32,000 bases of DNA from Nitrosospira multiformis ATCC 25196 (GCF_000196355.1 NC_007614.1:2910001-2942000); one strand, 5' to 3'; positions 6,261-23,035 are shown, counted from the stretch's first letter. Notes: generated by a model from the letters alone, not told the origin. Program-made: numbers and translations.

Positions 6261-7445
6261 TTACACTGATTGCCCTGCCGCATAACCCGATGACCAGGCC
6301 CACTGGAAATTGAAGCCCCCCAGTTGGCCCGTGACATCGACGACTTCTCCCACGAAATAAAGGCCGGGTACTTTTTTCGATTCCATCGTTTTGGAAGAAA
6401 GCTCGGCAGTATCGATGCCTCCAAGGGTTACTTCCGCCTTTTTATAGCCGGCGGTGCCGCTCGGAATAACCTGCCAGGCATGCAATTGAGGAGCCAGTTG
6501 CCTCAAGCTCTTGTTGCCATACTGGTTTACAGGTGTTTCCGGGAGCCCACCCATCATTGCACCCAGCCAGGCCTCTGCAAACCGCCGGGGCAGATGCTGC
6601 GCTAACAGATTGGATAGCAGGACCCCGCTGTGTCTGCGATCGCGCAACCAATCGTCTGCATCCAGTTCAGGTAACAGGTTGATATGGATCGGATCTCCCG
6701 GCCGCCAGTATGAGGAAATCTGGAGGATTGCAGGCCCGCTCAGACCCCGATGCGTGATCAGCAGATTTTCTCTAAAATGCGCGCCGTTACAGCTCACTAT
6801 TGTATCGAGCGCAATTCCCGTGAGCCCTGAAAAAGCGGATAACTGTTCCGGCGCAAAAGTCAGCGGTACCAGGGCGGGACGTAGCGCCGTAACGTTTATG
6901 CCGAACTGTTCTGCGATGCGATAGCCAAAAGGACTGGCGCCGATTTGCGGAATGGAAAGACCTCCGGTCGCGATTACCAGCGCGTCTGCCATCACTTTGC
7001 TACAGCTGGTTTCCAATACGAATCCAGTATTGCCGGAGTCCCGGTCTATGCGGCTTACCTCGCAGGGCATTTGAAAGATGACTCCGGCTGCCTCGCATTC
7101 ACTGCGCAGCATGTCGATGATTTGCTGCGAGGCCTCATCGCAAAATAGCTGTCCCAGCTTTTTTTCGTGATAACGGATGCGGTGCTTTTCCACCAGCTCT
7201 ATGAAGTGGCGAGGAGTGAAACGTGCAAGTGCGGATCGGCAGAAATGCGGATTCTGCGACAGAAAATTTTCCGGAACAGTGTGGCGATTCGTGAAATTAC
7301 ACCGCCCCCCTCCCGAGATACGGATTTTTTCCGCCAGTTTGCTGGCATGATCCACCAGCAACACACTTCGTCCACGCTTTCCCGCTTCCATTGCGCACAT
7401 CATGCCGGCTGCGCCAGCGCCTATTACGACGACATCTTTCTTCAA
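6261..7445 (-). CDS. NAD(P)/FAD-dependent oxidoreductase, HI0933/YhiN (BaiN-like) family
   Basis: Dinucleotide fold KKDVVVIGAGAAGMMCA, family signature ISGGGRCNFTN, C-terminus GGFNFQWAWSSGYAAG. The start is set at TTG 7445-7443, the only start codon just before the GxGxxG motif. The 478-aa ORF-track version overlaps the upstream gene and is an artefact. Confidence 0.85.
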   Translation of the reverse strand: MKKDVVVIGAGAAGMMCAMEAGKRGRSVLLVDHASKLAEKIRISGGGRCNFTNRHTVPENFLSQNPHFCRSALARFTPRHFIELVEKHRIRYHEKKLGQLFCDEASQQIIDMLRSECEAAGVIFQMPCEVSRIDRDSGNTGFVLETSCSKVMADALVIATGGLSIPQIGASPFGYRIAEQFGINVTALRPALVPLTFAPEQLSAFSGLTGIALDTIVSCNGAHFRENLLITHRGLSGPAILQISSYWRPGDPIHINLLPELDADDWLRDRRHSGVLLSNLLAQHLPRRFAEAWLGAMMGGLPETPVNQYGNKSLRQLAPQLHAWQVIPSGTAGYKKAEVTLGGIDTAELSSKTMESKKVPGLYFVGEVVDVTGQLGGFNFQWAWSSGYAAGQSV

Positions 7446-7479: not shown

Positions 7480-8121
7480 TTACCCGCGTTCTGTTGCAGG
7501 CTTGCGCCATACACTGGCCAGCCAGGGTTGCTGCTCGCGTGGAAGGCCTGTGGGGCGATAGTAATGAGCAAGCTCGACGAAACCCGCGCCGGACATATAG
7601 CGCCTCCAGCCATCGATATCGTGATAGACGCAATAACGCCCCTGGTTCCAGCCCTCCTCGTTATTCCCGCGGGGGTTGGAGCTGAACAGCACTCCACCCG
7701 GTTTCAGCGTTGCCCACAGTTCTTTTAGCACGCGCGGAAGTTCAACACTCGGAACATGAAACAGGGAGGCATTCGCAAATATGCCATCAAAGTGTTCCTC
7801 AGGCAGATCGAGCCGGAGAAAGTCCTGCTGCCATATCTCGCAGCCGCTATGGTTAGCCGCCATTTCGGCAAGCCGCGTTGCACCTTCCAGCCCGATCGCC
7901 ACATGACCGAGATCGGTAAAAGATTTCAGGTCGCGTCCGGGGCCGCAACCCAGATCCAGTATCTTGAAGGGTGGAGGACTTTCGATGTGGCGCAGCAATG
8001 CAGCAATATTTTGGCTGACATCGTGGTCTTTGGTAGCCTCCCAGAACGCTTCGGCTCTTTCGTTGTAACTGTTCAGGACAAGATGGGAGAGTTTTCTGAG
8101 ATCCGCTGAATCGGTTTTCAC
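7480..8121 (-). CDS. Class I SAM-dependent methyltransferase
   Basis: 213 aa. Motif I ILDLGCGPGRD, motif II FDGIFANASLFHV, motif III LKPGGVLFSS. GTG start at 8121 with no clear SD, so the start is uncertain. Confidence 0.8.
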   Translation of the reverse strand: MKTDSADLRKLSHLVLNSYNERAEAFWEATKDHDVSQNIAALLRHIESPPPFKILDLGCGPGRDLKSFTDLGHVAIGLEGATRLAEMAANHSGCEIWQQDFLRLDLPEEHFDGIFANASLFHVPSVELPRVLKELWATLKPGGVLFSSNPRGNNEEGWNQGRYCVYHDIDGWRRYMSGAGFVELAHYYRPTGLPREQQPWLASVWRKPATERG

Positions 8122-8193: not shown

Positions 8194-8964
8194 TTACTCT
8201 CTGGCAATACCCAGCAATGCGCCCCGAGCCTGAAGATCAATCATGATCTTCTCGCCGCCCTGCATCACGACTTCGGGGGACGGATGCCTGCTTTCGGCCG
8301 TGATGATTTCAAGAGCGGCATGCCCGGTATGCTCTTCCAGCGCAAGCAGATCTATCAGACGCGCGGTAAAGGCGTTGATTTCTGAAAATTGAATCTCATC
8401 ATCCGCGTCACGAAACAGCAGCAAGTAAGTTGTTGCCGGAGTGATGCGGGCGCGTGGGCGGATATGATGAACTGGCCAATGATAGCAAAGATTGGCAAGC
8501 ACCGGATTCAAAAGAGGCCGCCCCTCGAGCAGATTACCGGCGCTATCGATCGTCTTCCAATCGGGCATGTCCGTTGAGGTGGACAATGCCAGTTCCACCC
8601 ATTCGTAGTGCGCCAGCTCCAGGAGGAATCCCGGATAGTTTTCAGGGATGACGCCTTTACTCCCTAGAAATTCTATAAACTCACCGGCTATCTGATGGAA
8701 AAGGGGAGAACGGCTACGATGCGCAATGAGAAAAGCGCGCACCAGCCTTGACCATCGCCGCGGCCCCAGCACATCTCGAGTCACCGGAAAGCATCTGAGA
8801 AGAAAACTGTCGAGATTCTCGTAAACCAGTCTGCTGTATATGCCCATCCGCCGCGCATCGAGTCCAGATGGAACAGGCTTTGCCCGGGGATCGCGAAGGT
8901 GCGCAGTGAAGGCGTACTGGAAGCGCTGAAATTCAGGTGGCTGAGGCATCGCCTGAATCCGCAT
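8194..8964 (-). CDS. DUF2063-type partner protein of an MNIO enzyme (HvfC/BufC-like)
   Basis: N-terminus QRFQYAFTAHLRDP...GMGIYSRLVYENLDSFLLRCFPVTRDVLGPRRWSRLVRAF...SPLFHQIAGEFIEFL matches the DUF2063 pattern. Its start overlaps the DUF692 gene by 32 nt (17 nt if Met6 at 8949 is used). Confidence 0.8.
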   Translation of the reverse strand: MRIQAMPQPPEFQRFQYAFTAHLRDPRAKPVPSGLDARRMGIYSRLVYENLDSFLLRCFPVTRDVLGPRRWSRLVRAFLIAHRSRSPLFHQIAGEFIEFLGSKGVIPENYPGFLLELAHYEWVELALSTSTDMPDWKTIDSAGNLLEGRPLLNPVLANLCYHWPVHHIRPRARITPATTYLLLFRDADDEIQFSEINAFTARLIDLLALEEHTGHAALEIITAESRHPSPEVVMQGGEKIMIDLQARGALLGIARE

Positions 8965-9784
8965 GCTGTGCCTGGATCAGCGCGATATGTAGCACTTCCC
9001 GCATCAACTGCTCGAGCGGAGGAATATTGAAGTCACGCTCGAGCAAAGTCGGCGCAACCCCGTGCATTCCGTAGGTTTGATCCAGCAGCGACCATACCGG
9101 ATCGATTACATCGGCTCCGTGAGTATCGATGATAAGATTCTCCGCCTCCTTATGATGCCCGGCCATGTGCATATACACGATGCGATCGGAAGGCAACGCC
9201 CGGATGAAGTCCACGGGATCATAGTCGTGGTTAATGCTGTTGACGTAGACGTTATTGACATCGAGATGAAGATCGCAATCCGCCTCCAGCAAAACAGCCC
9301 GGATAAAGTCCAATTCACTCATATCGCTGATAGGCGAAGCAACATAAAACGATGCATTTTCCAATGCGATACGCCGCTCGAGAATATCCTGGGTACGGCG
9401 AACGCGTTCAGCGACATATTTTACCGCTTCCTCCGTAAAAGGGATCGGAAGCAGATCGTACAGGTGACCGTCATCGGAGCAGTAGGAAAGATGTTCCGTA
9501 TAAAGAAGTACCCGGTGCTGATCGAGGAACTGGCGAATCTTTTGCAGCAGAATTTCATCCAGGGGAGCAGGACCACCGATTGAAAGGGAAAGGCCATGAC
9601 AGACAAAAGGATAGCGCTCGGTAAAAAAAAGCAGATCCCGTGCCGCCCCCCCTCCAAGGTCGATCCAGTTCTCGGGGGCGATCTCGAAAAAATCGATGGT
9701 GGCGGGGACACCGCTTTTCAGCGCAGGAATGAGCTCCCGCCGGAAGCCCAGCCCCACGCGGGCGAGGCGTGGGAACTGTTGCAT
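8933..9784 (-). CDS. DUF692 / MNIO (multinuclear non-heme iron oxidative) enzyme, MbnB/HvfB/BufB-like
   Basis: 283 aa with the conserved DUF692 TIM-barrel blocks: FFEIAPENW, HGLSLSIGG, YTEHLSY, IALENASFY, LHLDVNNVYVNS, MHMAGHH, IDTHGADV, TLLERDFNIP. Confidence 0.88.
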   Translation of the reverse strand: MQQFPRLARVGLGFRRELIPALKSGVPATIDFFEIAPENWIDLGGGAARDLLFFTERYPFVCHGLSLSIGGPAPLDEILLQKIRQFLDQHRVLLYTEHLSYCSDDGHLYDLLPIPFTEEAVKYVAERVRRTQDILERRIALENASFYVASPISDMSELDFIRAVLLEADCDLHLDVNNVYVNSINHDYDPVDFIRALPSDRIVYMHMAGHHKEAENLIIDTHGADVIDPVWSLLDQTYGMHGVAPTLLERDFNIPPLEQLMREVLHIALIQAQHADSGDASAT

Positions 9785-9790
9785 GTCCAG

Positions 9791-10204
9791 TTATTTCTTC
9801 ATCTGCCCATGGGGCGCTGCCGTTCCGCCACCGGACTTGCTTTTTGCAAAGCTGTCCGCTTCCGCCGGATCGACGGCTCCATCCTTGTTCGCGTCAATCT
9901 TGTCGAAGATGCCTTCGTGATGCTTGATAAATTCTTCCTTGGTCACTTTATTGTCTTTGTTCTTGTCCGCCAGCGACATGCCGCAATTTCCTTCCGCCGC
10001 TTTTGCGCCTGCCCCATATTTACTGGGGTCCACCCGGTCGGCATAAGCCACTATATAACGCTCGTTTAACGACTCCATGACGAAAGGATTGCTTGCCTTG
10101 CTGTCCGCCTCACTGTCGCCCGCGAAAACAATGGGAGAGGCGCCGAGGCCGGTAGCAAGGACCGACCCTATGACGATGGAAATCTTGGATTTTTTGTCTT
10201 GCAC
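9791..10204 (-). CDS. Secreted EF-hand protein; candidate MNIO substrate (HvfA/bufferin-like precursor)
   Basis: 137 aa with a GTG start. An aaggag SD ends 8 nt upstream of the start. Sec signal MQDKKSKISIVIGSVLATGLGASPIVFA|GD. The single Cys (C74) lies in AAEGNCGMS. Two canonical EF-hand loops are DKNKDNKVTKEE and DANKDGAVDPAE, and the His/Met-containing tail is GGGTAAPHGQMKK. The gene ends 6 nt before the DUF692 start. Confidence 0.75.
   Translation of the reverse strand: MQDKKSKISIVIGSVLATGLGASPIVFAGDSEADSKASNPFVMESLNERYIVAYADRVDPSKYGAGAKAAEGNCGMSLADKNKDNKVTKEEFIKHHEGIFDKIDANKDGAVDPAEADSFAKSKSGGGTAAPHGQMKK
9860..9967 (-). other. Pair of EF-hand Ca-binding loops (residues 80-91 and 104-115)
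   Basis: Both loops fit D-x-[DN]-x-D-[GN]-x-[IV]-x-x-x-E, and the inter-loop helix is FIKHHEGIFDKI. Confidence 0.65.
9974..9994 (-). other. EGNCGMS motif; predicted MNIO modification site (Cys74 codon at 9985-9983)
   Basis: Reverse strand reads gaa gga aat tgc ggc atg tcg. It resembles the EGKCG core of the HvfA / bufferin-2 class. Confidence 0.5.
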
Positions 10205-10248
10205 AGTTGGTTCTCCTTGAATCTGGAAAAAATATTATGTCACAGTTT

Positions 10249-10282: not shown

Positions 10283-10366
10283 GCGCATCGGGAACAAAGA
10301 ACTCCCCCGGAGAGACTTGCAGCAAAATAATGTATTTATTTCTTGCGGGGGTATTCAAGGACTAAA

Positions 10367-10381
10367 AATTCTGCAAGAATT
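10367..10381. promoter_or_regulatory. Perfect 15-bp palindrome aattct-gca-agaatt in the divergent intergenic region
   Basis: Read directly from the sequence. The surroundings are AT-rich. No regulator can be assigned. Confidence 0.25.
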
Positions 10382-10553
10382 CGTGTGCCCCATATGCCCC
10401 CTATATGTCCACAGGGAGTTGAATGTGAAGAGGCTGCGGTTTTGTCATGCACAGGAGGATGAGAACCTCATTCCTAAGCTAAATTGTGGGATTTCCATTC
10501 CTGGCCAGAACCTTGAGGCTTCTGCCAACCGTCTTGCTCTCGGAGCGCATCAA

Positions 10554-13965: not shown

Positions 13966-14739
13966 TCAAGAACGATCAGAGCCGATGGCTTGCCGCCTGG
14001 CGACATATCCACCAAGCGAGGGCGCGGGTGAATGAACGGCGCGCATTTCCGCATCGGCGTATCGTACTACGGTCGACAGGGTAGAGCGCGCGGCTCGCGC
14101 GTCCGATGCCAGCCGCAGGAGCGTGCCGAGAGTCAGCGCGCGCTTCAGCAACAGCCCCAGCAAGCGTCTCAGGTGAGGACTTCCGTCCGGTCGTACTGCC
14201 TCAAGCAGAACACGCGGGGGTGAGAAGTCGAGGGGATCTGAAATAGCGCGTACTACCATGAATGGCAATCCGGCATTCGTGGCAACTTCGGCGACTGCGC
14301 CGCTTTCCATATCTACTGCGTTCGCGCCGGTGGCTTCGGCCAGCTCGCGTTTTGCAGAAGTGGAGGTAAGCACCTTGCTGCTGGCAGCCAGGATTCCACC
14401 TGCCACATTCAGCTGATCGGGCAGGCATCCCAGCAGACGGGCGCGCCAATTCAAATCAACCGGCAGGAGACAACCGCCCGTATGGATCGACTCTGGCAGC
14501 ACCAACGCTCCCGAGTTCAGGCCTGCATGCAATGCGCCCGCAAAGCCGAAACTCATCAGTGCAGCAGCTCCTGCATTCTTCAGTCCGGTTGCGGCTGCAC
14601 CGGCCGCCTCTGCCCCCACTCCACACAGCCAGACGGCAGCGCCATTCCCGAGATCTGTCCTTTGATTGAAGGAGAGGCGCAATGGCGTTATGCAACCCGC
14701 CTCCATCCGCATGGCGACAATGATGCCGACCGCCGTCAC
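13966..14739 (-). CDS. hpnG: Hopanoid-associated phosphorylase HpnG (nucleoside phosphorylase fold)
   Basis: PNP/MTAN-like blocks VGIIVAMRMEA, GFAGAL, AVDMESGAVAEVA. Directly follows shc. GTG 14739 overlaps the shc stop as GTGA, which suggests translational coupling. The alternative is the ORF-track ATG at 14784, which overlaps shc by 49 nt. Confidence 0.8.
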   Translation of the reverse strand: MTAVGIIVAMRMEAGCITPLRLSFNQRTDLGNGAAVWLCGVGAEAAGAAATGLKNAGAAALMSFGFAGALHAGLNSGALVLPESIHTGGCLLPVDLNWRARLLGCLPDQLNVAGGILAASSKVLTSTSAKRELAEATGANAVDMESGAVAEVATNAGLPFMVVRAISDPLDFSPPRVLLEAVRPDGSPHLRRLLGLLLKRALTLGTLLRLASDARAARSTLSTVVRYADAEMRAVHSPAPSLGGYVARRQAIGSDRS

Positions 14740-16697
14740 CCGGGGAACTTCCGGTTCAATGCATGAAATCGGGTCAATGCCCATACCGGGAAATATTTCG
14801 TATACCCGTAGTACTTGAGGTAGAAAACCCGCGGGAAGCCGGGAGCGGTAAACCAGGGCTCATGCCAGAGCCCGTCGCTGTCCTGTTCCCGCAAGAGGTA
14901 GGCAATTCCCCGGTGAACCTCATGACTTCGCCATTCGCCGGCTCCCATCAGTGCAAGCAGTGCCCATGCGGTATGAAAAGAAGTACTGGTATGAAACTGG
15001 CCTGCCTGCTGGGGGGAAAGATAGCTGTCGTTACTTTCTCCCCATCCGCCATCCTCCCGCTGCACGGATTTGAGCCAGTGCACCGCGCGTCGGATGGCAG
15101 GATGACCGGCATCTATCCCGGCCAGACGGAAGGCCTCCAGCACAGACCACGTTCCATAGATGTAATTGCTGCCCCAGCGGCCGAACCAGGCGCCACTGGC
15201 CTCCTGTTCATTGAAGAGGTATGCCAGACTCCGTTCCAGCGCCTGTTTATGCCTGGACTGGCCGTACAAGGCGAGAAAACCTGCACAGCGGGCGGAAACA
15301 TCACTGGTGGGAGGATCAAGGAGCGCCCCATGATCGGCAAACGGGATCTCGTTGAGATAGTAATACGTATTGTCGCTGTCGAAAGCCGCAAACCCCCCAT
15401 TGCTGGACTGCATCCCCGCCAGCCAGTCGGCGGCCCGGCTGATGCTTTCCTGATAAGCCTTAGGGTCGGCCTGGTACAGTGCCCACGCCACCGCAGCCGT
15501 GTCGTCGAGATCGGGATAGTGGGGATTTGCATACTGAAAAGCCCAGCCCCCGCCCGGTAATCCGGGATGATCTTCTTGCCAGTCCGCCGGCGCATCGAGC
15601 ACCTGACAGGGAACCAGCCAGTCGAGCGCTTTCCGGATGGGCTTCTGATCGACCTCCGTATCCTCCTGAAAGGCGAGACAGGTCAGGACGGTATCCCATA
15701 CTGGGGAAACACAGGGCTGGCACCAGGTACGCTCGCCTTCCTCCACCAGCAGCAGGCGCAGCGCCTTGCGGCATTGCTCCCGCGCGGGATGATCATATGG
15801 GTATCCAAGCAATGCCAGAGCTTCGCCGGCATTCACCATGGCAGGAAAGATCGCCCCCAGGCCTGAGTCGCCGTTCAGCCTTTCCACGATCCAGCTTTCC
15901 GCCCGCCGCAGCGCCAATCTGCGCACCCCTTGGGGTATGAAGGGTTCGAGCAGGGAGAGAGTGCGCTCGATCAGCAGAAACACGCGATTGAGCGCAGTAC
16001 GTACCGGAAAATAATTCCGCTCCTCCCCCGGAGGTACCGTAAACAATTCACGAATGGCGACTTTGCGCGGATTCGCCGCGCGCGCCTTCAGGCTGCACAG
16101 GATAGATAGCGGAACCATTACGGTCCGCGACCAGTATGCGACCTTGCTGGTATGGAATGGAAACCACTTGGGGAACAGTATGATTTCCACCGGCACAAAT
16201 GGCACGCCTCGCCAGGGAAGCTGGTCATACATGGCAAGCAGCAGGCGTGTAAATACATTTGCTCTCGCTGCGCCGCCATGTTTCAGAATTGCTGCACGCG
16301 CACGCACCATGTGGGGCGCGTCCGGGGAGTCCCCCACAATTTTCAGAGCATAATAGGCCTTGACCGAACAACTCAGATCGAATTCACCGCCGTAGTAGAG
16401 CGGCCAGCCTCCGTGCGCTACATCCTGTTTTTCACGAATAAAACGGGCAATCCTGACCTCCAGATCCAGGTCCACTTCATCCATGAAGTGCATCATCAGT
16501 ATATACTCGGCGGGAATCGTGCAATCGGCCTCCAATGGAAAGCACCAGTGGCCATCCTCCCTCTGCTGAGCCAGCAGCGCACCGCGTGCCGCTTCCAGTC
16601 CCGCTTTCAGCATTTTTTCGTCCATTGAGGGAGTATTGTTTGAGCCCGGGGATTGAGCTTGCAATGAAGTTCTCGCCATACCTCCGAATTTTTTCAT
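14736..16697 (-). CDS. shc: Squalene-hopene cyclase
   Basis: 653 aa. Catalytic DxDD in YPDLDDTAAV and repeated QW motifs (QREDGGWGE, QSSNGGFAAF, EQEASGAWFGRWG). The start is uncertain; Met7 at 16679 is an alternative. Confidence 0.95.
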   Translation of the reverse strand: MKKFGGMARTSLQAQSPGSNNTPSMDEKMLKAGLEAARGALLAQQREDGHWCFPLEADCTIPAEYILMMHFMDEVDLDLEVRIARFIREKQDVAHGGWPLYYGGEFDLSCSVKAYYALKIVGDSPDAPHMVRARAAILKHGGAARANVFTRLLLAMYDQLPWRGVPFVPVEIILFPKWFPFHTSKVAYWSRTVMVPLSILCSLKARAANPRKVAIRELFTVPPGEERNYFPVRTALNRVFLLIERTLSLLEPFIPQGVRRLALRRAESWIVERLNGDSGLGAIFPAMVNAGEALALLGYPYDHPAREQCRKALRLLLVEEGERTWCQPCVSPVWDTVLTCLAFQEDTEVDQKPIRKALDWLVPCQVLDAPADWQEDHPGLPGGGWAFQYANPHYPDLDDTAAVAWALYQADPKAYQESISRAADWLAGMQSSNGGFAAFDSDNTYYYLNEIPFADHGALLDPPTSDVSARCAGFLALYGQSRHKQALERSLAYLFNEQEASGAWFGRWGSNYIYGTWSVLEAFRLAGIDAGHPAIRRAVHWLKSVQREDGGWGESNDSYLSPQQAGQFHTSTSFHTAWALLALMGAGEWRSHEVHRGIAYLLREQDSDGLWHEPWFTAPGFPRVFYLKYYGYTKYFPVWALTRFHALNRKFPG

Positions 16698-16901
16698 GTA
16701 TTTTTACCTAGCGCCTCTTTAAAGTTTCAGGGAAGACCATATCGCAGGGGTGTGAGTGCAGCCATAAAAACTATTAAAAGCATGATTTTACTCGATTCTG
16801 CCTCGAAATCGGTACATCGTCGAGATTCATGCAAGGATGTTTATGGCAGATGCAGCGCCCGCTGGACAAGTGAAAGCAGCAGTTGAGATTTGATTAAAAT
16901 C

Positions 16902-17672
16902 TCATCGCAATGGCTCGGCCGCGGCCTCGTTCTGTACGGAATCCTCATCTGCGAATTCGTCCAGGCTTTCGGGCGGCGGGTCGCCATCATAGATCAAGTG
17001 CTTGCGCTGCTGTAAAAAACCTTCGCGAACGAAAAGATAGGGGTCCAGAGCGGCCTGGTCCCGAATACGCATGGGGCCGGACAATCGCGCCCGCCTGTCG
17101 ATGATACTTAAAACCGTGATTGGAGCTACCACCGCGCTGCTGGCAACAGTACCCGCATAAAACAAAAGGTTGCTGAAAACGCTCACAGGAATGCCGGGCG
17201 CATCCCGATAGCTGCTGGGGCCGATCAGAGGGACAAAAAGGTAGGAGCCGGTATCAACGCCCCAGACGCCGAGGGTCTGCCCGAAATCTTCATCATGCTG
17301 TGGCAACCCCATGGGCCCTGCCATGTCGAAGAGCCCGCCCAGGCCGATGGTCGAATTGACCGCAAAGCGAAGGGTGTCCTGGAATCCCTGCCGTACTTTA
17401 CCTTGCAGGAAAGCATTAAGAATAACATTGGGATATGCAAGGTTGTCGTAGAAATTGCCAATCGAACGCTGCAGGGGGTCGGGCACATGCTTTATATAAG
17501 CATCCGCAACCGGCGCCAGAACGGCGCGATCCACCTTGTCGGTAAAATTGTAAAACTGTCGATTGGCTCTTTCATTCGGATCGATCGTATCGATACTCGC
17601 ATCGTTCTTATGCAGCGCCGCGCAACCGGTAAACAGTGATATGCATGCCAACAACAGGAAGGAAGTTCGCAT
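16902..17672 (-). CDS. MlaA/VacJ family outer-membrane lipoprotein
   Basis: Lipobox MRTSFLLLACISLFTGC. Conserved VacJ blocks are DPNERANRQFYNFTDKVDRAVLAPVA, NLAYPNVILNAFLQGK, NSTIGLGGLFD and DFGQTLGVWG. ATG 17672 follows a ggtgg SD-like sequence. The ORF-track start at 17783 adds 37 residues. Confidence 0.85.
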   Translation of the reverse strand: MRTSFLLLACISLFTGCAALHKNDASIDTIDPNERANRQFYNFTDKVDRAVLAPVADAYIKHVPDPLQRSIGNFYDNLAYPNVILNAFLQGKVRQGFQDTLRFAVNSTIGLGGLFDMAGPMGLPQHDEDFGQTLGVWGVDTGSYLFVPLIGPSSYRDAPGIPVSVFSNLLFYAGTVASSAVVAPITVLSIIDRRARLSGPMRIRDQAALDPYLFVREGFLQQRKHLIYDGDPPPESLDEFADEDSVQNEAAAEPLR

Positions 17673-17794
17673 ATTTGCCACCATCCGTAAAGGGAAGGCT
17701 ATGTCCCTGTTAATCTGTCCCTCAGAATCAGAATCCGCATGGAAGGGGATGTCCACAAACCGCCACAGGTGCGAAGTATACAATTATTGCCGGA

Positions 17795-20467
17795 CTAACG
17801 CACAAATCGAGCCTTTGCCCCTGCGGCCGGCGCGCGCAGCAATGCAGGCAGTATCACCAGTGTACAGATAAGCGTAAAAGCCAGCCCCACGGTAAGCATT
17901 ATTCCCATACTCGCAGTGCCTCTGTGAGACGAGAACATCAGACTTGCGAAATCCACCAGCGCGGTCAGGGCGCTGTAAAAAATCGCCCGCGCAGTGCTGG
18001 TATGGATCAGGATCTCGCTTACCAGTTCATTATTCAGACTGCGATGCACCATATGCAGGCTGCTATCGATCCCCAGGCCAAGCAAAAGCGGGAGAGCAAT
18101 GATATTGGCAAAATTGAACGGAACATCCAGCAGGACTGTGAACGCAGCGGTAAACAGGCTGGACAGCAACAGCGGGAGCAGGACCAGCAGCATGTACTTT
18201 ACACTGCGCAACAACACCAGCAGGGCAACGATAATTCCAACGAGCGCAAGCAAAAACGCCTGCATGAAGGCGTGCACTACCGCCTCGCCCGCTTCAAGGG
18301 TCACCACTGGCGCTCCCGTCACTTCGGGCGCCACTTTCTGCACGCTTCGCACGAAGCGCCGCAATGCATTGTTGTCGTTCAGGTCTTCTGATGGATAAAT
18401 TGCCAAGCGATATTCGCCTGACTGGGCCTGCCAGCGGTTGCTCAACGATGGCGGCAGATCCTGCTCGCCAAACAGGTTGGCTTCCGTCGCCGTACGCAGG
18501 CTCTCCAGCGCCGCAGGCAACGTAACCAGCAGATCTCCCTCCAGGGACCGCAACAAGGCGACCTGGCCGGCAGGACTGGCTGTATCAAGCTGTTCAAACA
18601 GGGAGCTCAGGGATGACCTGAGCTTGCGTGCGGCCGGAACTGCCGCATGCTCCGGGCGTGCGGCAATAAAATTGTCCAGTGCGACGGTCAGTGCGTCGAG
18701 CGCCTCGCGCTGTTGCCGGAGGGAACTCTCCACGCGGCGATCCTGTCCCACCTCCGCGATCGGTCCCACGGTCAACGCCATTTCCTCGATGAGTTGCAGC
18801 TTTTCTTCCTGATTGGCCGGCACGAAGTCGGGGAGACTGACTACCTTCTCCACTTCGGGAAGCTTGCTCAATGCCTGCGTCAGACGGGCCAGTTCCTTCT
18901 TGTCTTCTGCCAGCGCCACGGAATGCCACGGCGAGAGATCGGGCTGCGCAAGGAGTTCACGAAAGGCCTGTATCGCTTTTCCCTTCTGATCCTGCAAATT
19001 CAGGAGATTGTAGTCGAACCGCACCTGAGGCAGCAGAAGAAGCGCGCCAATCGACGCGGCAAGCGTGGCGGCGTAGGTGAGTCTGTGCCACTTCAGGGAT
19101 AATTCCAGCACTCTGCCAACCGACGCTTTCGGGGGGGCACTTGCCTTGGCTTGCTGTCGTTTCGGGAGGTAACGCAGCAGGGCAGGCGCAACCGTAAGAG
19201 TTACCAGAAGACTGATAATCATGCCTGTGCCGGAGATGATGCCCAATTCCGCCACGCCGCTGTAATCTGTAGGAATGAACGCGTAGAAACCGATCGCGTT
19301 TGTGATTGTACAGGCAGTAAGCGCCGCGCCTGCATCCCCGCCTGAAACATGCAGCGCCTCGGTAGACGAGTTGCCGCTTTCCAGAACTTCGCGATAACGC
19401 AGCAGAAAGTGAATGGCGAAGTCGGCCCCCAGACCGATGTACAGCACGGCAAACGCAATGGAGATCAGGTTGACATGACCTACTGCGGCGGTGGCAAATG
19501 CCGCCGTAAGAATCAGGCCCATGGCGAGACACACCAGTACGTTGATGATCAGTCCGGGCGCTCGCATCGCAAAATAAAGAACCACGACAACCAGGATGAA
19601 GGTGATGATTCCTGCGTATTGCATGCCGAGCAGCGAACTGCTCAGTTCGTCATGCGATAACGCCACTTCCCCGGTAATACGCAGGCGGACTGCTCCATCC
19701 TCCGTAATTCCTGCATCGCCCGCCGCGGCGAATAGCGCGTTGATGGCCTGCTCCCCGGGAAACATCTGATCATAATTGAGCTTCGGCTTGGCTATGATCA
19801 ATTCCTGGTATTTGCTTTTTTGCGATTCGCCGCTGAAGAGGGCTTGCCACGACAACGCACGCGGCGCTCCTTCCAGTCTTGCTTTCATCGTGTCACTCAC
19901 TGCCCCCAGCACCGGACTGAGTTCCATGTCGCGGCCCTTCTGCAATTCCTCTATCGCGCCCGTCAGCACATCGGCGAAAGCCGCGAGCGTAGGATTTCCG
20001 GCAATATGGGCCATCAACGGCTGCGCGGCAGCCACACGGTCGGTTATGTGCTGCAGTTCCGCAACGCTTTCATAGAGCAGGCCATTGCGCGTGAAGAAGT
20101 CGCCTGCTGTCGGGGGATAGATATCCTCGAAATTGAGAGTGTCTTTTTTCAGCTGCGCGGCAAGGCGTTCGGTGGCCTGATGGACCTGCTCAGGCGTCGG
20201 CGCTTCCAGCACTACCAGAAGCGTGTCGACATCCTGCGGAAATGTCTTGTTGTAGTGGGTGATGTTGACACGAAACGGCAGATCCCTGGAGAGCATGTCG
20301 GTTGTGTCGGTATTCATGCCGAGATTGCGCGAGACGTAGATGCTGCATCCTGCGGAAATCAGCAGTGCTGTGAAAAGAACCCAGGCGCTATGACGATAGC
20401 AAACAGTGGCCCAAGCTGCAAAAATACGGTAGATGCGGCTTTCCGAGCCGTTGTCTGTTGTGGTCAT
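17795..20467 (-). CDS. hpnN: Hopanoid-associated RND/MMPL-type transporter HpnN
   Basis: 890 aa with two 6-TM bundles, each followed by a large periplasmic domain (RND/MMPL architecture). Located inside the hopanoid locus. Confidence 0.85.
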   Translation of the reverse strand: MTTTDNGSESRIYRIFAAWATVCYRHSAWVLFTALLISAGCSIYVSRNLGMNTDTTDMLSRDLPFRVNITHYNKTFPQDVDTLLVVLEAPTPEQVHQATERLAAQLKKDTLNFEDIYPPTAGDFFTRNGLLYESVAELQHITDRVAAAQPLMAHIAGNPTLAAFADVLTGAIEELQKGRDMELSPVLGAVSDTMKARLEGAPRALSWQALFSGESQKSKYQELIIAKPKLNYDQMFPGEQAINALFAAAGDAGITEDGAVRLRITGEVALSHDELSSSLLGMQYAGIITFILVVVVLYFAMRAPGLIINVLVCLAMGLILTAAFATAAVGHVNLISIAFAVLYIGLGADFAIHFLLRYREVLESGNSSTEALHVSGGDAGAALTACTITNAIGFYAFIPTDYSGVAELGIISGTGMIISLLVTLTVAPALLRYLPKRQQAKASAPPKASVGRVLELSLKWHRLTYAATLAASIGALLLLPQVRFDYNLLNLQDQKGKAIQAFRELLAQPDLSPWHSVALAEDKKELARLTQALSKLPEVEKVVSLPDFVPANQEEKLQLIEEMALTVGPIAEVGQDRRVESSLRQQREALDALTVALDNFIAARPEHAAVPAARKLRSSLSSLFEQLDTASPAGQVALLRSLEGDLLVTLPAALESLRTATEANLFGEQDLPPSLSNRWQAQSGEYRLAIYPSEDLNDNNALRRFVRSVQKVAPEVTGAPVVTLEAGEAVVHAFMQAFLLALVGIIVALLVLLRSVKYMLLVLLPLLLSSLFTAAFTVLLDVPFNFANIIALPLLLGLGIDSSLHMVHRSLNNELVSEILIHTSTARAIFYSALTALVDFASLMFSSHRGTASMGIMLTVGLAFTLICTLVILPALLRAPAAGAKARFVR

Positions 20468-20622
20468 GCTGGGGAAGCAATGTCGGGGAATCGATCCGTG
20501 CTTAGAGGATGGTTTCGGGGGTTAGCAGCGAACGAGGTAAAAAAGAATCCCGGTCGTTGGCGAAACAGAATGCAAAAAGGGAAACCTGAAGTCGGGCTTT
20601 TCCTTGGGTCCATCAAGCTGCC

Positions 20623-20706
20623 GTCATACCCGCGAAAGCGGTTATCCGGTTTTTTCAACGAAATAATATTATAAATCCGGTGGATTTCCGCTTTCACGGA
20701 AATGAC
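20623..20706. repeat. Inverted pair of REP-like palindromic units
   Basis: Unit 1 is gtcatacccgcgaaagcggttatcc (20623-20647). The reverse complement of unit 2 is gtcatttccgtgaaagcggaaatcc (20682-20706). They are separated by an AT-rich 34-bp spacer. Spurious ORFs across it read ...SYPRKRLSG... and MDFRFHGNDD.... Confidence 0.65.
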
Positions 20707-20880
20707 GATCAAGGTTTGGCCGGAAGGTTTCTGCCTCTTATTACAAGCCCCGCCCCTTTTGCCCATGCGGTTCTCTGGATGTCACCGATTTTATTCCGGG
20801 TGAAGCGGGCACGGGCTCGAAGTCCGGCGCGACAAGGGCTGGTGGGAAAAGTTGTTTCAAGATTGTCGTGAGAGCAGTGT

Positions 20881-21510
20881 TCAGTCTTTTCCTGCCTGCT
20901 CGATCTTCTGCTGGAGCATGTCGAGGAGCTTTGGGAAACCGTCGCGCTGAAGAATGGCCCTGTACTCGACCCGTTTCAGTGCCAGATCGCTGACACCGTC
21001 GGCCAGAATATTCACGATACGCCACCCATCCTTTCCTTGCCGCAGCATGTAGTCAAAGCGTACTGGCTCGCCGCCGGATTGAATCAACTTGCTACGTATC
21101 ATTACCTGCTCCCGGGGCATGGATTGACGCTCGAGAGACTCAAACCGCTCGCCGTCATATTCCTTGAACTGACTTGCGTAAGTAGCTATGCTCAGCTTGC
21201 GAAAAGTATCTGTAAAGGTACGCTGCTGCTCAGCGCTCAATTGGGTCCAGTTCGCTCCCAGCGACGTGCGCGCGATAAAATCAAGATCATGCGTCTGATT
21301 GATGACAGGAGCCAGCAATTCATAGCGTCCCTCATAGCCGAGCTTTGCGCCCTCGCGCATCGCCTTGATGAGTGCTTCCTGCAACTGTTTGACGACTTGT
21401 TCCGGCGTTCCCGACTCCTGGGTTTCGCTCCAGGAGGGAGACGCCGCCAGAAGCATCAGGACAATTATTTGAAGTTGCAGCAGTGACTTCAGTGCACTCA
21501 GGATCTTCAT
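20881..21510 (-). CDS. hpnM: MlaC/Ttg2D-family periplasmic lipid-binding protein (HpnM-like)
   Basis: Signal peptide MKILSALKSLLQLQIIVLMLLAASPSWS, then toluene-tolerance (MlaC) family features (DLDFIARTSLGANW..., FRKLSIATYASQF, DGWRIVNILADGVSDLALKRVEY). I chose the ATG at 21510. The ORF-track start at 21564 adds 18 residues. Confidence 0.8.
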   Translation of the reverse strand: MKILSALKSLLQLQIIVLMLLAASPSWSETQESGTPEQVVKQLQEALIKAMREGAKLGYEGRYELLAPVINQTHDLDFIARTSLGANWTQLSAEQQRTFTDTFRKLSIATYASQFKEYDGERFESLERQSMPREQVMIRSKLIQSGGEPVRFDYMLRQGKDGWRIVNILADGVSDLALKRVEYRAILQRDGFPKLLDMLQQKIEQAGKD

Positions 21511-21842
21511 GTTGATAATCTTATAGCAGTTTGTCCATGCACATGACTTGATGAGGCATCTCATCCGGCAATATTCCTTGCGATATTCGGCCAGCTGGGT
21601 TTTGCATCGAGTGGCCGATAGTTTCTATACCCCGGAAATCAGATACCCCCCGCGTGACGCTTCCACGATTACATCCCCCACCCCTTTAGCCTTTTGCCGC
21701 TCACGCCTGCGCACCCGGCAGGACGCCAGGTCCTGCCATTCATCGGACCCCCTCCGGTAAAGTTGTCTCGGGCAAACCAGCATGCATCGATTTTTAGGGC
21801 TGCCGGCTACACGCAGTGTCGCTGTTTCGGCAACGGCCAATG

Positions 21843-22952: not shown

Positions 22953-23035
22953 GTATAAATCCTCCAAAAAACTTCCGTAAACTTTATTAATGTCAGGTTG
23001 GGGTCACCTGATTTCTTCCTGTTGTTATGCAGGTG

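What the first reader, a model, noticed from the sequence alone, without database searches (positions are those of the whole stretch)
8194..10204. MNIO (DUF692) + DUF2063 + secreted precursor: a bufferin/HvfA-like RiPP operon of an apparently undescribed subtype
Seen: three co-directional genes are packed tightly, with a 6-nt gap and then a 32-nt overlap. The middle protein carries every conserved DUF692 block (HGLSLSIGG, EHLSY, ENASFY, DVNNVYVN, MHMAGHH, IDTHG, TLLERD). The last protein has the DUF2063 N-terminal pattern. The first protein has a Sec signal peptide.

Established: DUF692 proteins are multinuclear non-heme iron oxidative (MNIO) enzymes such as MbnB, HvfB, BufB, TglH and ChrH. 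With a DUF2063-type partner (HvfC/BufC) they convert Cys residues of Sec-exported precursors into oxazolone-thioamide or 5-thiooxazole metal-binding groups.

Inference: this is such a system, but with a different substrate class (see the next finding) and without the DoxX gene seen in bufferin operons.
Basis: partly seen in the sequence, partly recalled or inferred. Interest (0 to 1): 0.8.

Follow-up and report, generated by a model that had tools for sequence, protein, structure and literature searches.

The report
EF-hand RiPP precursor with HvfBC maturase
A three-gene operon in a Nitrosospira-like ammonia oxidiser encodes a secreted calcium-binding protein with one invariant cysteine, plus the iron enzyme pair HvfB/HvfC that most likely converts that cysteine into a copper-binding thiooxazole ring; this operon type was already catalogued in 2025, so it is a new member of a known kind.

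Summary
Three co-directional minus-strand genes (9791-10204, 8933-9784, 8194-8964) encode a 137-aa EF-hand protein, an HvfB-family MNIO and an HvfC-family DUF2063 partner. Both enzymes score above the curated NCBIfam cut-offs.

MNIO+DUF2063 operons whose first gene is a "Buf_EGKCG|EF-hand_5 chimaera" were described by Antoine et al. 2025. The P. aeruginosa EF-hand protein EfhP was reported next to DUF692/DUF2063 genes in 2014.

The precursor is not a different substrate class. Its only Cys sits in an invariant E-G-x-C-G core, exactly 6 residues before the first Ca2+ ligand of EF-hand 1. HvfB carries the Arg15/Arg16 and Asp251/Phe252 positions reported to select EGKCG substrates.

Across 80 species-level loci, hvfB follows the precursor wherever the Cys motif is present and enough DNA is available. 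Two lineages that lost hvfBC have Tyr in place of the Cys. Sister species carry a canonical EGKCG-repeat precursor in tandem in front of the same hvfBC.

The expected product is a 5-thiooxazole, per the 2026 revision of oxazolin. No EF-hand chimaera has been shown experimentally to be modified. That gap, and the minimal one-Cys form, are what remains of interest.

The parts
10232..10244 (-). TGTGACATAATAT: an extended -10-like promoter element (TGn + CATAAT), about 28 nt before the start codon
   Evidence: Invariant or nearly so in 11 of 12 Nitrosospira/Nitrosovibrio upstream regions, while the flanks diverge (alignment A3). It is unique in the window, with 0 matches expected by chance. The generic -35/-10 scan did not call it. 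Promoter function is inferred.
10213..10217 (-). Shine-Dalgarno AGGAG, 8 nt before the GTG start
   Evidence: Read directly from the sequence. The AGGAGA block is conserved in A3.
9791..10204 (-). Precursor gene (hvfA-like): 137-aa EGxCG|EF-hand chimaera with a single Cys
   Evidence: Supported. Homologues have the same length and start. The exact protein occurs on 6 public contigs with the same neighbours.
10121..10204 (-). Sec signal peptide (residues 1-28, predicted cleavage VFA|GD), probably also serving as the leader for HvfC
   Evidence: The n/h/c anatomy and a conserved A-x-A site are visible in A1. The leader role is inferred from HvfA and bufferin experiments.
10016..10090 (-). Conserved post-signal segment (residues 39-63, NPF..L..(R/G)Y.VAYADRVDP.KY)
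   Evidence: F41, L46, Y50 and A53 are conserved at 90% or more across 141 family members, multi-Cys paralogues included. The same segment occurs in the canonical EGKCG-only precursor of Nitrosovibrio Nv6. A recognition role is inferred.
9980..9994 (-). Core motif E71-G72-N73-C74-G75; Cys74 (codon 9983-9985) is the predicted modification site
   Evidence: E, G, C and G are 100% conserved in 67 single-Cys members, and position 73 varies among N, S, K, R and Q. It is the only EG.CG in a six-frame translation of the 32-kb window. It fits the FonBC substrate rules.
9932..9967 (-). EF-hand loop 1 (D80-E91, DKNKDNKVTKEE); position 6 is Asn, where most homologues have Gly
   Evidence: Pfam EF-hand_1 and EF-hand_5 match. 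D80, D84 and E91 are invariant. AF2 pLDDT is 83-91 for residues 80-120.
9860..9895 (-). EF-hand loop 2 (D104-E115, DANKDGAVDPAE)
   Evidence: Pfam EF-hand_5 matches residues 99-115. D104, N106, G109 and E115 are invariant.
8933..9784 (-). hvfB: MNIO (DUF692) maturase of the EGKCG ('Lys-Cys') type
   Evidence: NF003818 HvfB scores 425 against a cut-off of 360, and PF05114 gives E=2.4e-102. The closest solved structure is 3bww, E=6.9e-76. R15/R16 and D251/F252 are present, matching FonB R15/R16 and D249/F250.
8194..8964 (-). hvfC: DUF2063 / NGO1945_C partner (PME-type 1, RRE-containing), overlapping hvfB
   Evidence: NF050145 HvfC scores 258 against a cut-off of 142. PF09836 and PF22106 match. 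It matches 3dee, which is NGO1945/NgoC, at E=2e-17.

Best explanation
This is a minimal hvfABC-type ('captophorin'/oxazolin-family) RiPP operon of a Nitrosospira multiformis-like bacterium. Its precursor is a one-cysteine member of the EGKCG|EF-hand chimaera class.

Proposed mechanism:
1. The three genes are transcribed from a conserved extended -10 promoter. hvfB and hvfC are translationally coupled.
2. In the cytoplasm, the HvfB-HvfC heterodimer binds the full-length precursor through its Sec signal peptide and the following conserved segment.
3. HvfB uses its iron cofactor and O2 to oxidise Cys74 (four electrons, -4 Da) within E-G-N-C-G to a 5-thiooxazole that includes the Gly75 amide.
4. 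The protein is exported by Sec and cleaved after Ala28.
5. The mature ~109-residue periplasmic protein carries one soft-metal (most likely Cu(I)) ligand directly at the N-terminal edge of a folded two-EF-hand Ca2+-binding domain.

Shown here: gene identities, family membership of both enzymes, the core motif and its conservation, and the co-occurrence and co-loss pattern.

Inferred: the modification itself, its chemistry, export and cleavage, and the metal specificity.
For: Enzyme identity:
- HvfB and HvfC equivalog models score above their cut-offs. Pfam and solved structures 3bww and 3dee agree.

Substrate fit:
- Invariant E71-G72-x-C74-G75.
- FonBC requires Cys at position 4 and a small residue at position 5. 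It tolerates A, R and T at position 3, and Glu1 is read by Arg15/Arg16.
- The window's HvfB has R15, R16, D251 and F252.

Homology to canonical precursors:
- The 74-aa EGKCGx3 precursor of Nitrosovibrio Nv6 aligns to the N-terminal half of the window protein (39% over 72 aa, E=4e-10).
- In Nv6 that canonical precursor sits in tandem with the single-Cys EF-hand gene, in front of the same hvfBC.
- Nsp1 and L012 carry a 5-Cys EF-hand paralogue in the same tandem position.
- Xanthomonad relatives have EGKCG repeats on both sides of the EF-hand pair.

Genomic coupling:
- 29 of 31 species-level loci with a Cys at -6 have hvfB 9-86 nt downstream. The two exceptions are paralogues on contigs that end 450-490 nt downstream.
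- None of 47 EF-hand loci without the Cys motif has hvfB, apart from L037, whose frameshifted precursor still carries Cys motifs and has hvfB 1.4 kb downstream.

Natural co-loss:
- L024 has EDKYG instead of EGxCG, no hvfB, and only two decayed hvfC fragments.
- L086/P0041 also has Tyr and no hvfBC in the 427 nt available.
- The two proteins are 50% identical and share an rsmI neighbourhood.

Fixed geometry:
- 159 of 186 retrieved short EF-hand relatives have a Cys exactly 6 residues before Asp1 of loop 1. Of these, 64 have that Cys as their only one.

Chemistry:
- All characterised MNIO-DUF2063 systems install 5-thiooxazoles and bind Cu.

Cu hint:
- Family members P0142 and P0143 carry Met/His-rich inserts next to the Cys.
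Against: - No EF-hand chimaera has been shown experimentally to be modified. I found none in six literature searches.
- In vitro, FonBC did not modify a shortened FonA with a single EGKCG repeat, only the two-repeat peptide. A one-Cys substrate is therefore not guaranteed to turn over.
- A single thiooxazole cannot chelate Cu the way paired ones do in bufferin 1, so extra ligands or dimerisation would be needed.
- The EF-hand protein persists as an intact ORF in lineages without the Cys and without hvfBC. The EF-hand module therefore has a function that does not need the modification.
- EfhP phenotypes published so far concern Ca2+ and iron regulation, not copper.
- Signal-peptide cleavage, as opposed to a membrane anchor, is unresolved. 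EfhP and the chimaeras are described as having a predicted transmembrane helix.
Confidence: 0.62

Rival explanations
1. The EF-hand protein is only a periplasmic Ca2+ sensor or buffer (EfhP-like), and its Cys is not modified. HvfBC in this genome act in trans on other precursors encoded elsewhere, and the adjacency is inherited synteny.
For: - The EF-hand protein survives without the Cys and without hvfBC in two lineages.
- FonBC failed on a one-repeat peptide.
- Orphan Cys-bearing paralogues exist in Nitrosospira genomes with no hvfBC nearby (P0039 in L087). Trans-acting modification is therefore plausible anyway.
- Published EfhP work explains its phenotypes through Ca2+ binding.
Against: - E, G, C and G of the core are 100% conserved in 67 single-Cys members, while neighbouring columns vary and carry indels.
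- The Cys is replaced only where hvfBC is gone.
- There is a 6-nt gap to hvfB, so the genes are tightly coupled.
- The window holds no other EG.CG-encoding ORF.
- The HvfB specificity residues match an EGxCG substrate.
Confidence: 0.15
2. Cys74 is modified by HvfBC, but the product or its role differs from the copper-detoxifying captophorin paradigm. It could be another heterocycle, or a thiooxazole used for Ca2+-gated sensing, redox chemistry or another metal (Fe, Zn, Au).
For: [quoted passage not shown]
- Antoine et al. suggest roles beyond copper, including Ca2+ homeostasis or signalling, for the EF-hand fusions.
- The EfhP authors hypothesise Fe sensing by the EGKCG Cys residues.
- There is only one Cys, so no bis-thiooxazole site is possible within a monomer.
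Against: - Every MNIO-DUF2063 pair characterised so far (HvfBC, FonBC, NgoBC, BufBC) makes 5-thiooxazoles associated with copper.
- The window's HvfB passes the HvfB equivalog cut-off.
Confidence: 0.13
3. The operon is larger. The downstream class-I SAM methyltransferase (7480-8121) and the HI0933-like flavoprotein (6261-7364) would be tailoring enzymes, for example performing S-methylation of the thiooxazole.
For: - Both genes are co-directional, with a 72-nt gap after hvfC and no terminator-like site in that gap.
- The order hvfC-MT-FAD is kept in most Nitrosospira/Nitrosovibrio loci.
Against: - Both genes are absent from all xanthomonad and Thiothrix hvf loci.
- They are also absent from Nitrosospira sp. 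56-18 (L012), where ubiC and ubiA follow hvfC.
- The methyltransferase matches no RiPP-specific model above cut-off.
- Within-genus synteny alone explains the conservation.
Confidence: 0.07
4. One reading: a previously undescribed subtype of MNIO system with a new substrate class.
For: - NCBIfam has no specific model for the precursor; it gives only sub-threshold hits to XopAW and lanmodulin.
- Public sources name the homologues 'hypothetical' or 'EF hand'.
Against: The class is explicitly described and counted in PMC12452194. The EfhP-DUF692-DUF2063 operon was reported in 2014, and the EGKCG repeats of EfhP were noted in 2024.
Confidence: 0.03

Closest known systems
Buf_EGKCG|EF-hand_5 chimaera gene clusters (Antoine et al. 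2025, Microb Genom, PMC12452194)
   Same: The gene order is precursor, MNIO, DUF2063. The precursor has an N-terminal hydrophobic segment, a short unstructured EGKCG-type region without the 17-residue repeats, and two C-terminal EF-hand_5 domains. My AF2 model likewise shows a disordered N-terminal half and a confident EF pair.
   Different: The window protein has a single core (EGNCG, Lys replaced by Asn). It also has clade-specific AYADRVDPxKY and PHGxMKK segments. The paper gives no experimental data, and its own HMM was not available to me.
EfhP (PA4107) with PA4106 (DUF692) and PA4105 (DUF2063) of Pseudomonas aeruginosa
   Same: It is an EF-hand protein with two Ca2+ loops facing the periplasm, encoded directly upstream of DUF692 and DUF2063 genes. 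It contains EGKCG motifs.
   Different: EfhP has four EGKCG repeats and a predicted uncleaved transmembrane anchor, whereas the window protein has one Cys and an A-x-A cleavage site. EfhP's Ca2+ binding and its virulence and iron-regulation phenotypes are experimental, but its modification has not been studied. I could not retrieve the EfhP sequence, so orthology was not tested.
hvfABC(X) / oxazolin of Haemophilus influenzae, fontiphorin (FonABC) and gonophorin (NgoABC), the 'captophorins'
   Same: HvfB and HvfC are equivalogs. The precursors share a Sec signal peptide and the EGKCG-type core. The expected chemistry is Cys to 5-thiooxazole (-4 Da, absorbance maximum ~302-305 nm) with copper binding.
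   Different: Those precursors are short peptides with 6-7 tandem EGKCG cores and no folded domain, and hvf also has a DoxX-like gene. Here there is one core fused to a folded Ca2+-binding domain, with no DoxX gene nearby.
Bufferins Buf1 (DUF2282) and Buf2 (6/12 Cys) with BufB/BufC
   Same: They share the MNIO + DUF2063 + Sec-precursor logic, the thiooxazole product and the copper-stress role.
   Different: The window MNIO scores below the BufB cut-off (259 against 310). The precursor has no DUF2282 or Buf2 signature.
Methanobactin MbnA/MbnB/MbnC
   Same: The MNIO fold and iron-dependent oxidation of a precursor Cys are shared. MbnB is a distant hit (7dz9, E=2e-10).
   Different: MbnB scores 34 bits against a cut-off of 325. 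The partner is MbnC rather than DUF2063, the product is an oxazolone-thioamide, and the precursor has no Sec signal.

Membership tests
HvfB-family MNIO (NF003818 / PF05114) | The profile HMM scores above its curated cut-off over the full length | tested here: met
   NF003818 scores 425.3 bits against a cut-off of 360, covering residues 10-271 of 283. PF05114 scores 342 bits against a cut-off of 25.
HvfB-family MNIO (NF003818 / PF05114) | Conserved metal-ligand and catalytic motifs (HG.S, EH.S, EN, D.NN, H.AGH, DTH, ERD) | tested here: met
   All motifs are present, at residues 63, 97, 142, 175, 205, 219 and 247. They are identical in the alignment to the DUF692 structure 3bww. D251 corresponds to the proposed catalytic base FonB-D249. 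Assigning individual residues as ligands rests on published MbnB/HvfB work and was not tested here.
HvfB-family MNIO (NF003818 / PF05114) | Substrate-selecting residues of the EGKCG ('Lys-Cys') subgroup: Arg-Arg near the N-terminus and Phe after the catalytic Asp | tested here: met
   G-F-R15-R16-E and E-R-D251-F252 are present. They were compared with FonB R15/R16/D249/F250.
HvfB-family MNIO (NF003818 / PF05114) | Iron- and O2-dependent conversion of a precursor Cys to 5-thiooxazole | not testable with these tools
   This needs co-expression with MS, UV and NMR analysis.
HvfC-family partner (NF050145; DUF2063 + NGO1945_C; PME-type 1) | Both domains are present, the score is above cut-off, and the gene is adjacent to the MNIO gene | tested here: met
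   NF050145 scores 258 bits against a cut-off of 142. PF09836 matches residues 15-100 and PF22106 matches residues 153-244. It matches 3dee at E=2e-17. The gene overlaps hvfB.
Buf_EGKCG|EF-hand_5 chimaera precursors (Antoine et al. 2025) | An N-terminal signal or transmembrane segment, then a short Cys-containing EGKCG-type region without 17-residue repeats, then two EF-hand_5 domains | tested here: met
   Read from the sequence. Two EF-hand loops are found by Pfam. There is a single E-G-N-C-G. The protein is homologous to EGKCG-repeat relatives.
Buf_EGKCG|EF-hand_5 chimaera precursors (Antoine et al. 2025) | A match to the authors' Buf_EGKCG/oxazolin HMM | not testable with these tools
   That HMM is not in Pfam or NCBIfam. 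As a substitute, I aligned the protein to a canonical EGKCGx3 precursor (E=4e-10).
Buf_EGKCG|EF-hand_5 chimaera precursors (Antoine et al. 2025) | The gene immediately precedes the MNIO and DUF2063 genes | tested here: met
   There is a 6-nt gap in the window. The arrangement is conserved in 29 species-level loci.
Bufferin BufB / Buf1 / Buf2 | The BufB equivalog scores above cut-off, and the precursor has DUF2282 or the 6/12-Cys signature | tested here: not met
   NF050167 scores 259 bits against a cut-off of 310. The precursor has no DUF2282 hit and only one Cys.
Methanobactin MbnB | TIGR04159 scores above cut-off, with an MbnC partner | tested here: not met
   TIGR04159 scores 33.9 bits against a cut-off of 325. 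The partner here is DUF2063.
Canonical EF-hand Ca2+-binding pair | Two 12-residue loops with ligands at positions 1, 3, 5 and 12, each flanked by helices | tested here: met
   Loop 1 is D80-x-N-x-D-...-E91 and loop 2 is D104-x-N-x-D-G-...-E115. AF2 predicts helices at 89-103 and 113-126 with pLDDT 83-91. The entering helix of EF1 is reduced to residues 76-79, and loop 1 has Asn instead of Gly at position 6 in this species. Ca2+ binding itself was not tested.

The most novel reading that the evidence does not exclude
In the one-Cys clade, a single 5-thiooxazole is installed exactly at the N-terminal cap of EF-hand 1, at a spacing of 6 residues that is conserved across the family. This would make the soft-metal site and the Ca2+ site structurally coupled. 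The protein would then be a Ca2+-gated Cu(I) sensor or chaperone of the periplasm of ammonia oxidisers, whose ammonia monooxygenase depends on copper.

The Cu site would be completed in one of two ways. The first is by clade-specific conserved Tyr63, Met76, His95/96, His132 and Met135; Tyr63 and His132 align with Cys of relic KCG motifs in multi-Cys paralogues. The second is by Ca2+-dependent EF-hand dimerisation that brings two thiooxazoles together.
Probability: 0.12. Interest if true: 0.75.

Novelty: new member of a known kind. Interest (0 to 1): 0.35.

Why it matters
MNIO-DUF2063 systems are among the largest RiPP families. The EF-hand chimaeras, however, including the virulence-linked EfhP of P. 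aeruginosa, have never been shown to be modified. EfhP has so far been interpreted purely as a Ca2+ sensor.

The Nitrosospira protein offers the simplest possible test case. It has one Cys, one expected -4 Da change and a small folded reporter domain. Natural 'control' alleles exist in which Cys is Tyr and the enzymes are lost.

If Cys74 is modified, two things would follow:
- These enzymes would be shown to act on a single core next to a folded protein domain.
- EfhP biology would need re-reading, because the protein studied in E. coli without PA4106/PA4105 would have lacked its modification.

It would also put a copper-binding RiPP-protein into the core genome of soil ammonia oxidisers, organisms whose central metabolism depends on copper. 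As a genome annotation, though, the locus is ordinary.

Tried and rejected
- **Retrieving EfhP or other named relatives.** A profile search with a 16-sequence cross-clade alignment gave 1040 hits, but the 120 listed were almost all Nitrosospira or unnamed metagenomic proteins. EfhP was therefore not compared directly.
- **HMMER against 1.84 billion representatives.** The result was dominated by generic multi-EF-hand proteins (11,219 hits). Only about 20 full-length single-stretch hits were informative.
- **AF2 with 21 sequences.** The model was unusable (pLDDT 52). With 141 sequences only the EF pair became confident.
- **Foldseek against the PDB.** It gave no significant match (best E=0.25). 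All weak hits were EF-hand proteins, so no structural claim beyond 'EF-hand pair' is made.
- **Generic promoter/terminator scan.** It found nothing convincing around the operon. The conserved -10-like element came from the comparative alignment instead.
- **Rfam.** No RNA family was found anywhere in the window.
- **DoxX.** It was not found among the 31 window ORFs scanned with Pfam. Smaller ORFs were not scanned.
- **Methyltransferase and flavoprotein as tailoring genes.** Considered and rejected as core components.
- **Relic motifs.** The idea that KYG(63) and PHG(132) are relic EGKCG sites depends on the multiple alignment. A pairwise BLAST places the gap differently, so it is kept only as a lead.


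Full report
**1. Observation**

The window carries three co-directional minus-strand ORFs:
- 9791-10204 (137 aa, GTG start)
- 8933-9784 (283 aa)
- 8194-8964 (256 aa)

There is a 6-nt gap between the first two. The last two overlap by 32 nt (17 nt if the second in-frame ATG of the last gene is used). A strong AGGAG lies 8 nt before the GTG.

The exact 137-aa protein occurs on six public contigs with the same neighbours. The closest species-level genome is Nitrosospira multiformis Nl12, with 93% identity on the precursor and hvfB and 89% on hvfC. The window is therefore from a N. multiformis-like betaproteobacterial ammonia oxidiser.

The surroundings are core housekeeping genes. On one side are dapF, xerC and hslVU. 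On the other are dksA (divergent), pnp, hopanoid genes, mla genes and trpGDC.

**2.

- The middle protein matches PF05114 at E=2.4e-102. It passes the NCBIfam HvfB equivalog (425 bits, cut-off 360).
- It fails the BufB (259 against 310), ApyH, ChrH and MbnB models.
- Its closest solved structure is the Haemophilus somnus DUF692 protein 3bww (E=6.9e-76).
- The last protein has DUF2063 plus NGO1945_C. It passes the HvfC equivalog (258 bits, cut-off 142) and matches 3dee, the N. gonorrhoeae protein now called NgoC.
- The first protein matches only EF-hand models (two loops).

**3. The precursor is not a new substrate class**

Its only cysteine lies in A-A-E-G-N-C-G-M-S. That is the E-G-K-C-G core of HvfA, FonA and NgoA with Lys replaced by Asn.

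Conservation of the core:
- In 21 homologues (47-96% identity), E71, G72, C74, G75, M76 and S77 are invariant. Residue 73 varies among N, S, K, R and Q, and the preceding segment has indels.
- In a 141-sequence alignment, E, G, C and G are 100% conserved among the 67 one-Cys members.

This pattern fits the experimentally defined FonBC substrate rules:
- Cys at position 4 is essential.
- Only small residues are allowed at position 5.
- Ala, Arg and Thr are tolerated at position 3.
- Glu1 is read by Arg15/Arg16, and Phe250 follows the catalytic Asp249.
- The window's HvfB has R15, R16, D251 and F252.

**4. Comparative evidence ties the Cys to hvfBC**

I scanned one genome per species with the precursor profile and obtained 80 loci. 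The contingency is as follows:
- Twenty-nine loci have a Cys exactly 6 residues before Asp1 of EF loop 1 and have hvfB starting 9-86 nt after the precursor stop. Where the contig is long enough, hvfC follows. These are Nitrosospira, Nitrosovibrio, Luteimonas and Pseudoxanthomonas.
- A Thiothrix locus has EGKCG cores at another spacing, plus hvfBC.
- Two Cys-bearing paralogues lie on contigs that end about 450-490 nt downstream.
- Of the 47 loci without a Cys motif, 46 are generic EF-hand proteins and none has hvfB. The 47th is L024, described below. One frameshifted locus, L037, still carries Cys motifs and has hvfB 1.4 kb downstream.

The xanthomonad precursors show the family relationship plainly. 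After the signal peptide and a QGYLL segment come EGKCG repeats, two EF-hands, and then more EGKCG repeats.

Sister species are more telling:
- Nitrosovibrio sp. Nv6 has a canonical 74-aa EGKCGx3 precursor without EF-hands, directly upstream of the one-Cys EF-hand gene and hvfBC.
- Nitrosospira sp. Nsp1 and sp. 56-18 have a five-Cys EF-hand paralogue in that position.
- The Nv6 canonical precursor aligns with the N-terminal half of the window protein (39% over 72 residues, E=4e-10). The two share the signal peptide and the NPF..L..GY segment.
- The window has lost, or never had, the tandem gene. There is no remnant, and only one EG.CG in all six frames of the 32 kb.

**5. A natural loss experiment**

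- In a Nitrosomonadaceae MAG (L024), the EF-hand ORF is intact but reads E-D-K-Y-G in place of E-G-x-C-G. hvfB is gone, and only two decayed fragments of hvfC remain.
- A 50%-identical relative (P0041 on L086) has the same rsmI neighbourhood. It also has Tyr at that position and no hvfB or hvfC in the 427 nt that follow.

So the Cys is dispensable exactly where the enzymes are absent. The EF-hand module is kept in those lineages, which means it has a function of its own. These two cases may represent a single ancestral event.

**6. Anatomy of the protein**

- Residues 1-28 form a typical Sec signal: MQDKKSK, a 15-residue hydrophobic core, then S-P-I-V-F-A|G. An A-x-A site is conserved in homologues.
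- AF2 with 141 sequences gives a confident EF-hand pair (pLDDT 83-91 for residues ~80-120; helices 89-103 and 113-126). Everything before residue 74 has low confidence. This agrees with the published statement that the Buf_EGKCG part of the chimaeras is predicted to be unstructured.
- The entering helix of EF-hand 1 is reduced to one turn (76-79). Cys74-Gly75 therefore sit at the N-terminal cap of the Ca2+-binding domain.
- The Cys-to-Asp1 spacing of 6 residues is kept in 159 of 186 retrieved short relatives, and 64 of those have this Cys as their only one.
- Foldseek found nothing significant.

**7. Mechanism (inferred from characterised relatives)**

- HvfB and HvfC form a heterodimer only when co-expressed. 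HvfC is needed for the active mixed-valent diiron state. This fits the overlapping hvfB/hvfC genes here.
- HvfA without its signal sequence is barely modified, so the Sec signal acts as the leader.
- Each Cys becomes a 5-thiooxazole (-4 Da, ~302-305 nm, alkylatable). This is the revised structure for oxazolin, fontiphorin, gonophorin and bufferins.
- I therefore expect Cys74 to be converted to a 5-thiooxazole in the cytoplasm. Sec export and signal cleavage would follow, giving a periplasmic protein that binds Ca2+ and a soft metal, most likely Cu(I).
- Met/His-rich inserts next to the Cys in some family members (P0142, P0143) fit a copper role.

Caveats:
- FonBC did not process a one-repeat peptide in vitro.
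- One thiooxazole cannot form the paired sites seen elsewhere.

**8. Regulation**

A 13-nt element, TGTGACATAATAT (TGn + CATAAT), lies at 10232-10244. It is essentially invariant across Nitrosospira and Nitrosovibrio upstream regions whose flanks have diverged, and it is unique in the window. I read it as an extended -10 promoter, giving a ~23-nt leader.

No regulator gene is adjacent. Xanthomonad loci instead have an ECF sigma factor upstream. Rfam finds nothing.

**9. What is known already**

- Antoine et al. 2025 built a Buf_EGKCG/oxazolin profile covering about 2,000 proteins. They describe its second type as two EF-hand_5 domains fused to a short Buf_EGKCG domain after a predicted transmembrane helix. 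They mark the corresponding MNIOs in their networks and point to EfhP.
- Sarkisova et al. 2014 reported efhP as operonic with DUF692 and DUF2063 genes.
- The 2024 mBio paper notes four EGKCG repeats in EfhP and speculates on Fe sensing, without mentioning the neighbouring maturase genes.
- I found no paper linking Nitrosospira to EF-hand proteins and none testing modification of any EF-hand chimaera.

**10. Verdict**

The system assignment is right, but the novelty claim is not. The locus is a new, minimal, one-Cys member of a class that has been described only bioinformatically.

The points added here are:
- the core-motif reading and its fixed spacing to EF loop 1
- the match of the enzyme specificity residues
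- the tandem canonical precursor in sister species
- the Cys-to-Tyr/hvfBC co-loss
- the conserved promoter element
- the correction of the proposed experiment (keep the signal peptide; expect a thiooxazole)

Interest is moderate to low for the locus as such. It would be higher only if the Ca2+/Cu coupling idea proved true.

Noticed in passing
L026 5610-5834 and 6001-6411; L011 5437-5820 and 6001-6390; L012 5498-5869 and 5986-6393: Sister species carry two tandem precursor genes in front of one hvfBC. The first is either a canonical 74-aa EGKCGx3 peptide or a 5-Cys EF-hand paralogue, and the second is the one-Cys EF-hand gene. The window has only the latter.
   Followed up: yes
L024 6001-6399 and 6494-6726; L086 4125-4523: These are EF-hand homologues with Tyr in place of the core Cys, sitting in an rsmI neighbourhood. 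hvfB is absent, and hvfC is reduced to two fragments in L024. This looks like co-loss of the Cys and the maturase.
   Followed up: yes
L087 5001-5645 (P0039); L028 1982-2377: These are orphan paralogues with a duplicated EGxCG-EF-hand module, a Gly/Tyr-rich linker and an HMKPMGE C-terminus. L087 is monocistronic between a DUF815 gene and argJ, with no hvfBC nearby. They are presumably modified in trans, if at all.
   Followed up: partly
window 10016-10018 (Tyr63) and 9809-9811 (His132): In the 141-sequence alignment, Tyr63 (K-Y-G) and His132 (P-H-G) of the one-Cys clade fall in columns where multi-Cys paralogues have Cys of K-C-G motifs (85% and 46%). They may be relic cores turned into other metal ligands. 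The result depends on the alignment.
   Followed up: partly
window about 10365-10390 (dksA/precursor intergenic): A GAATTCT-TGC-AGAATT(T/C) inverted repeat sits within a block (GGCAGCACGAATTCTTGCAGAATTCT...CTTGAATACCCCC). The block is conserved in the Nitrosospira loci that lack the tandem precursor. Its function is unknown; it could belong to dksA regulation.
   Followed up: partly
window 9950-9952 (Asn85): EF loop 1 has Asn at position 6, where 79% of one-Cys homologues and all multi-Cys ones have Gly. This is specific to the N. multiformis group and might weaken Ca2+ binding at site 1.
   Followed up: no
window 7480-8121 and 6261-7364: A class-I SAM methyltransferase and an HI0933-like (aminoacetone-oxidase family) flavoprotein follow hvfC co-directionally in most Nitrosospira. 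They are absent from L012 and from the gammaproteobacterial hvf loci. The listed 478-aa ORF for the flavoprotein overlaps the methyltransferase; the real start is probably the one giving 367 aa.
   Followed up: partly
window 13966-22967: This is a hopanoid-related cluster: a PNP_UDP_1 (HpnG-like) gene, squalene-hopene cyclase, MlaA, an MMPL transporter, MlaC, and a radical-SAM DUF3463 (HpnH-like) gene.
   Followed up: no
L034 5293-5835: In Pseudoxanthomonas, an ECF-type sigma factor gene lies directly upstream of the EGKCG/EF-hand precursor. This suggests a different mode of regulation from Nitrosospira.
   Followed up: no
P0142, P0143 (metagenomic family members): These have Met- and His-rich inserts (for example GGMMKGMM and MKPMEGEMGGMKHG) flanking the single core Cys. 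They are reminiscent of Cu(I)-binding Met motifs.
   Followed up: no
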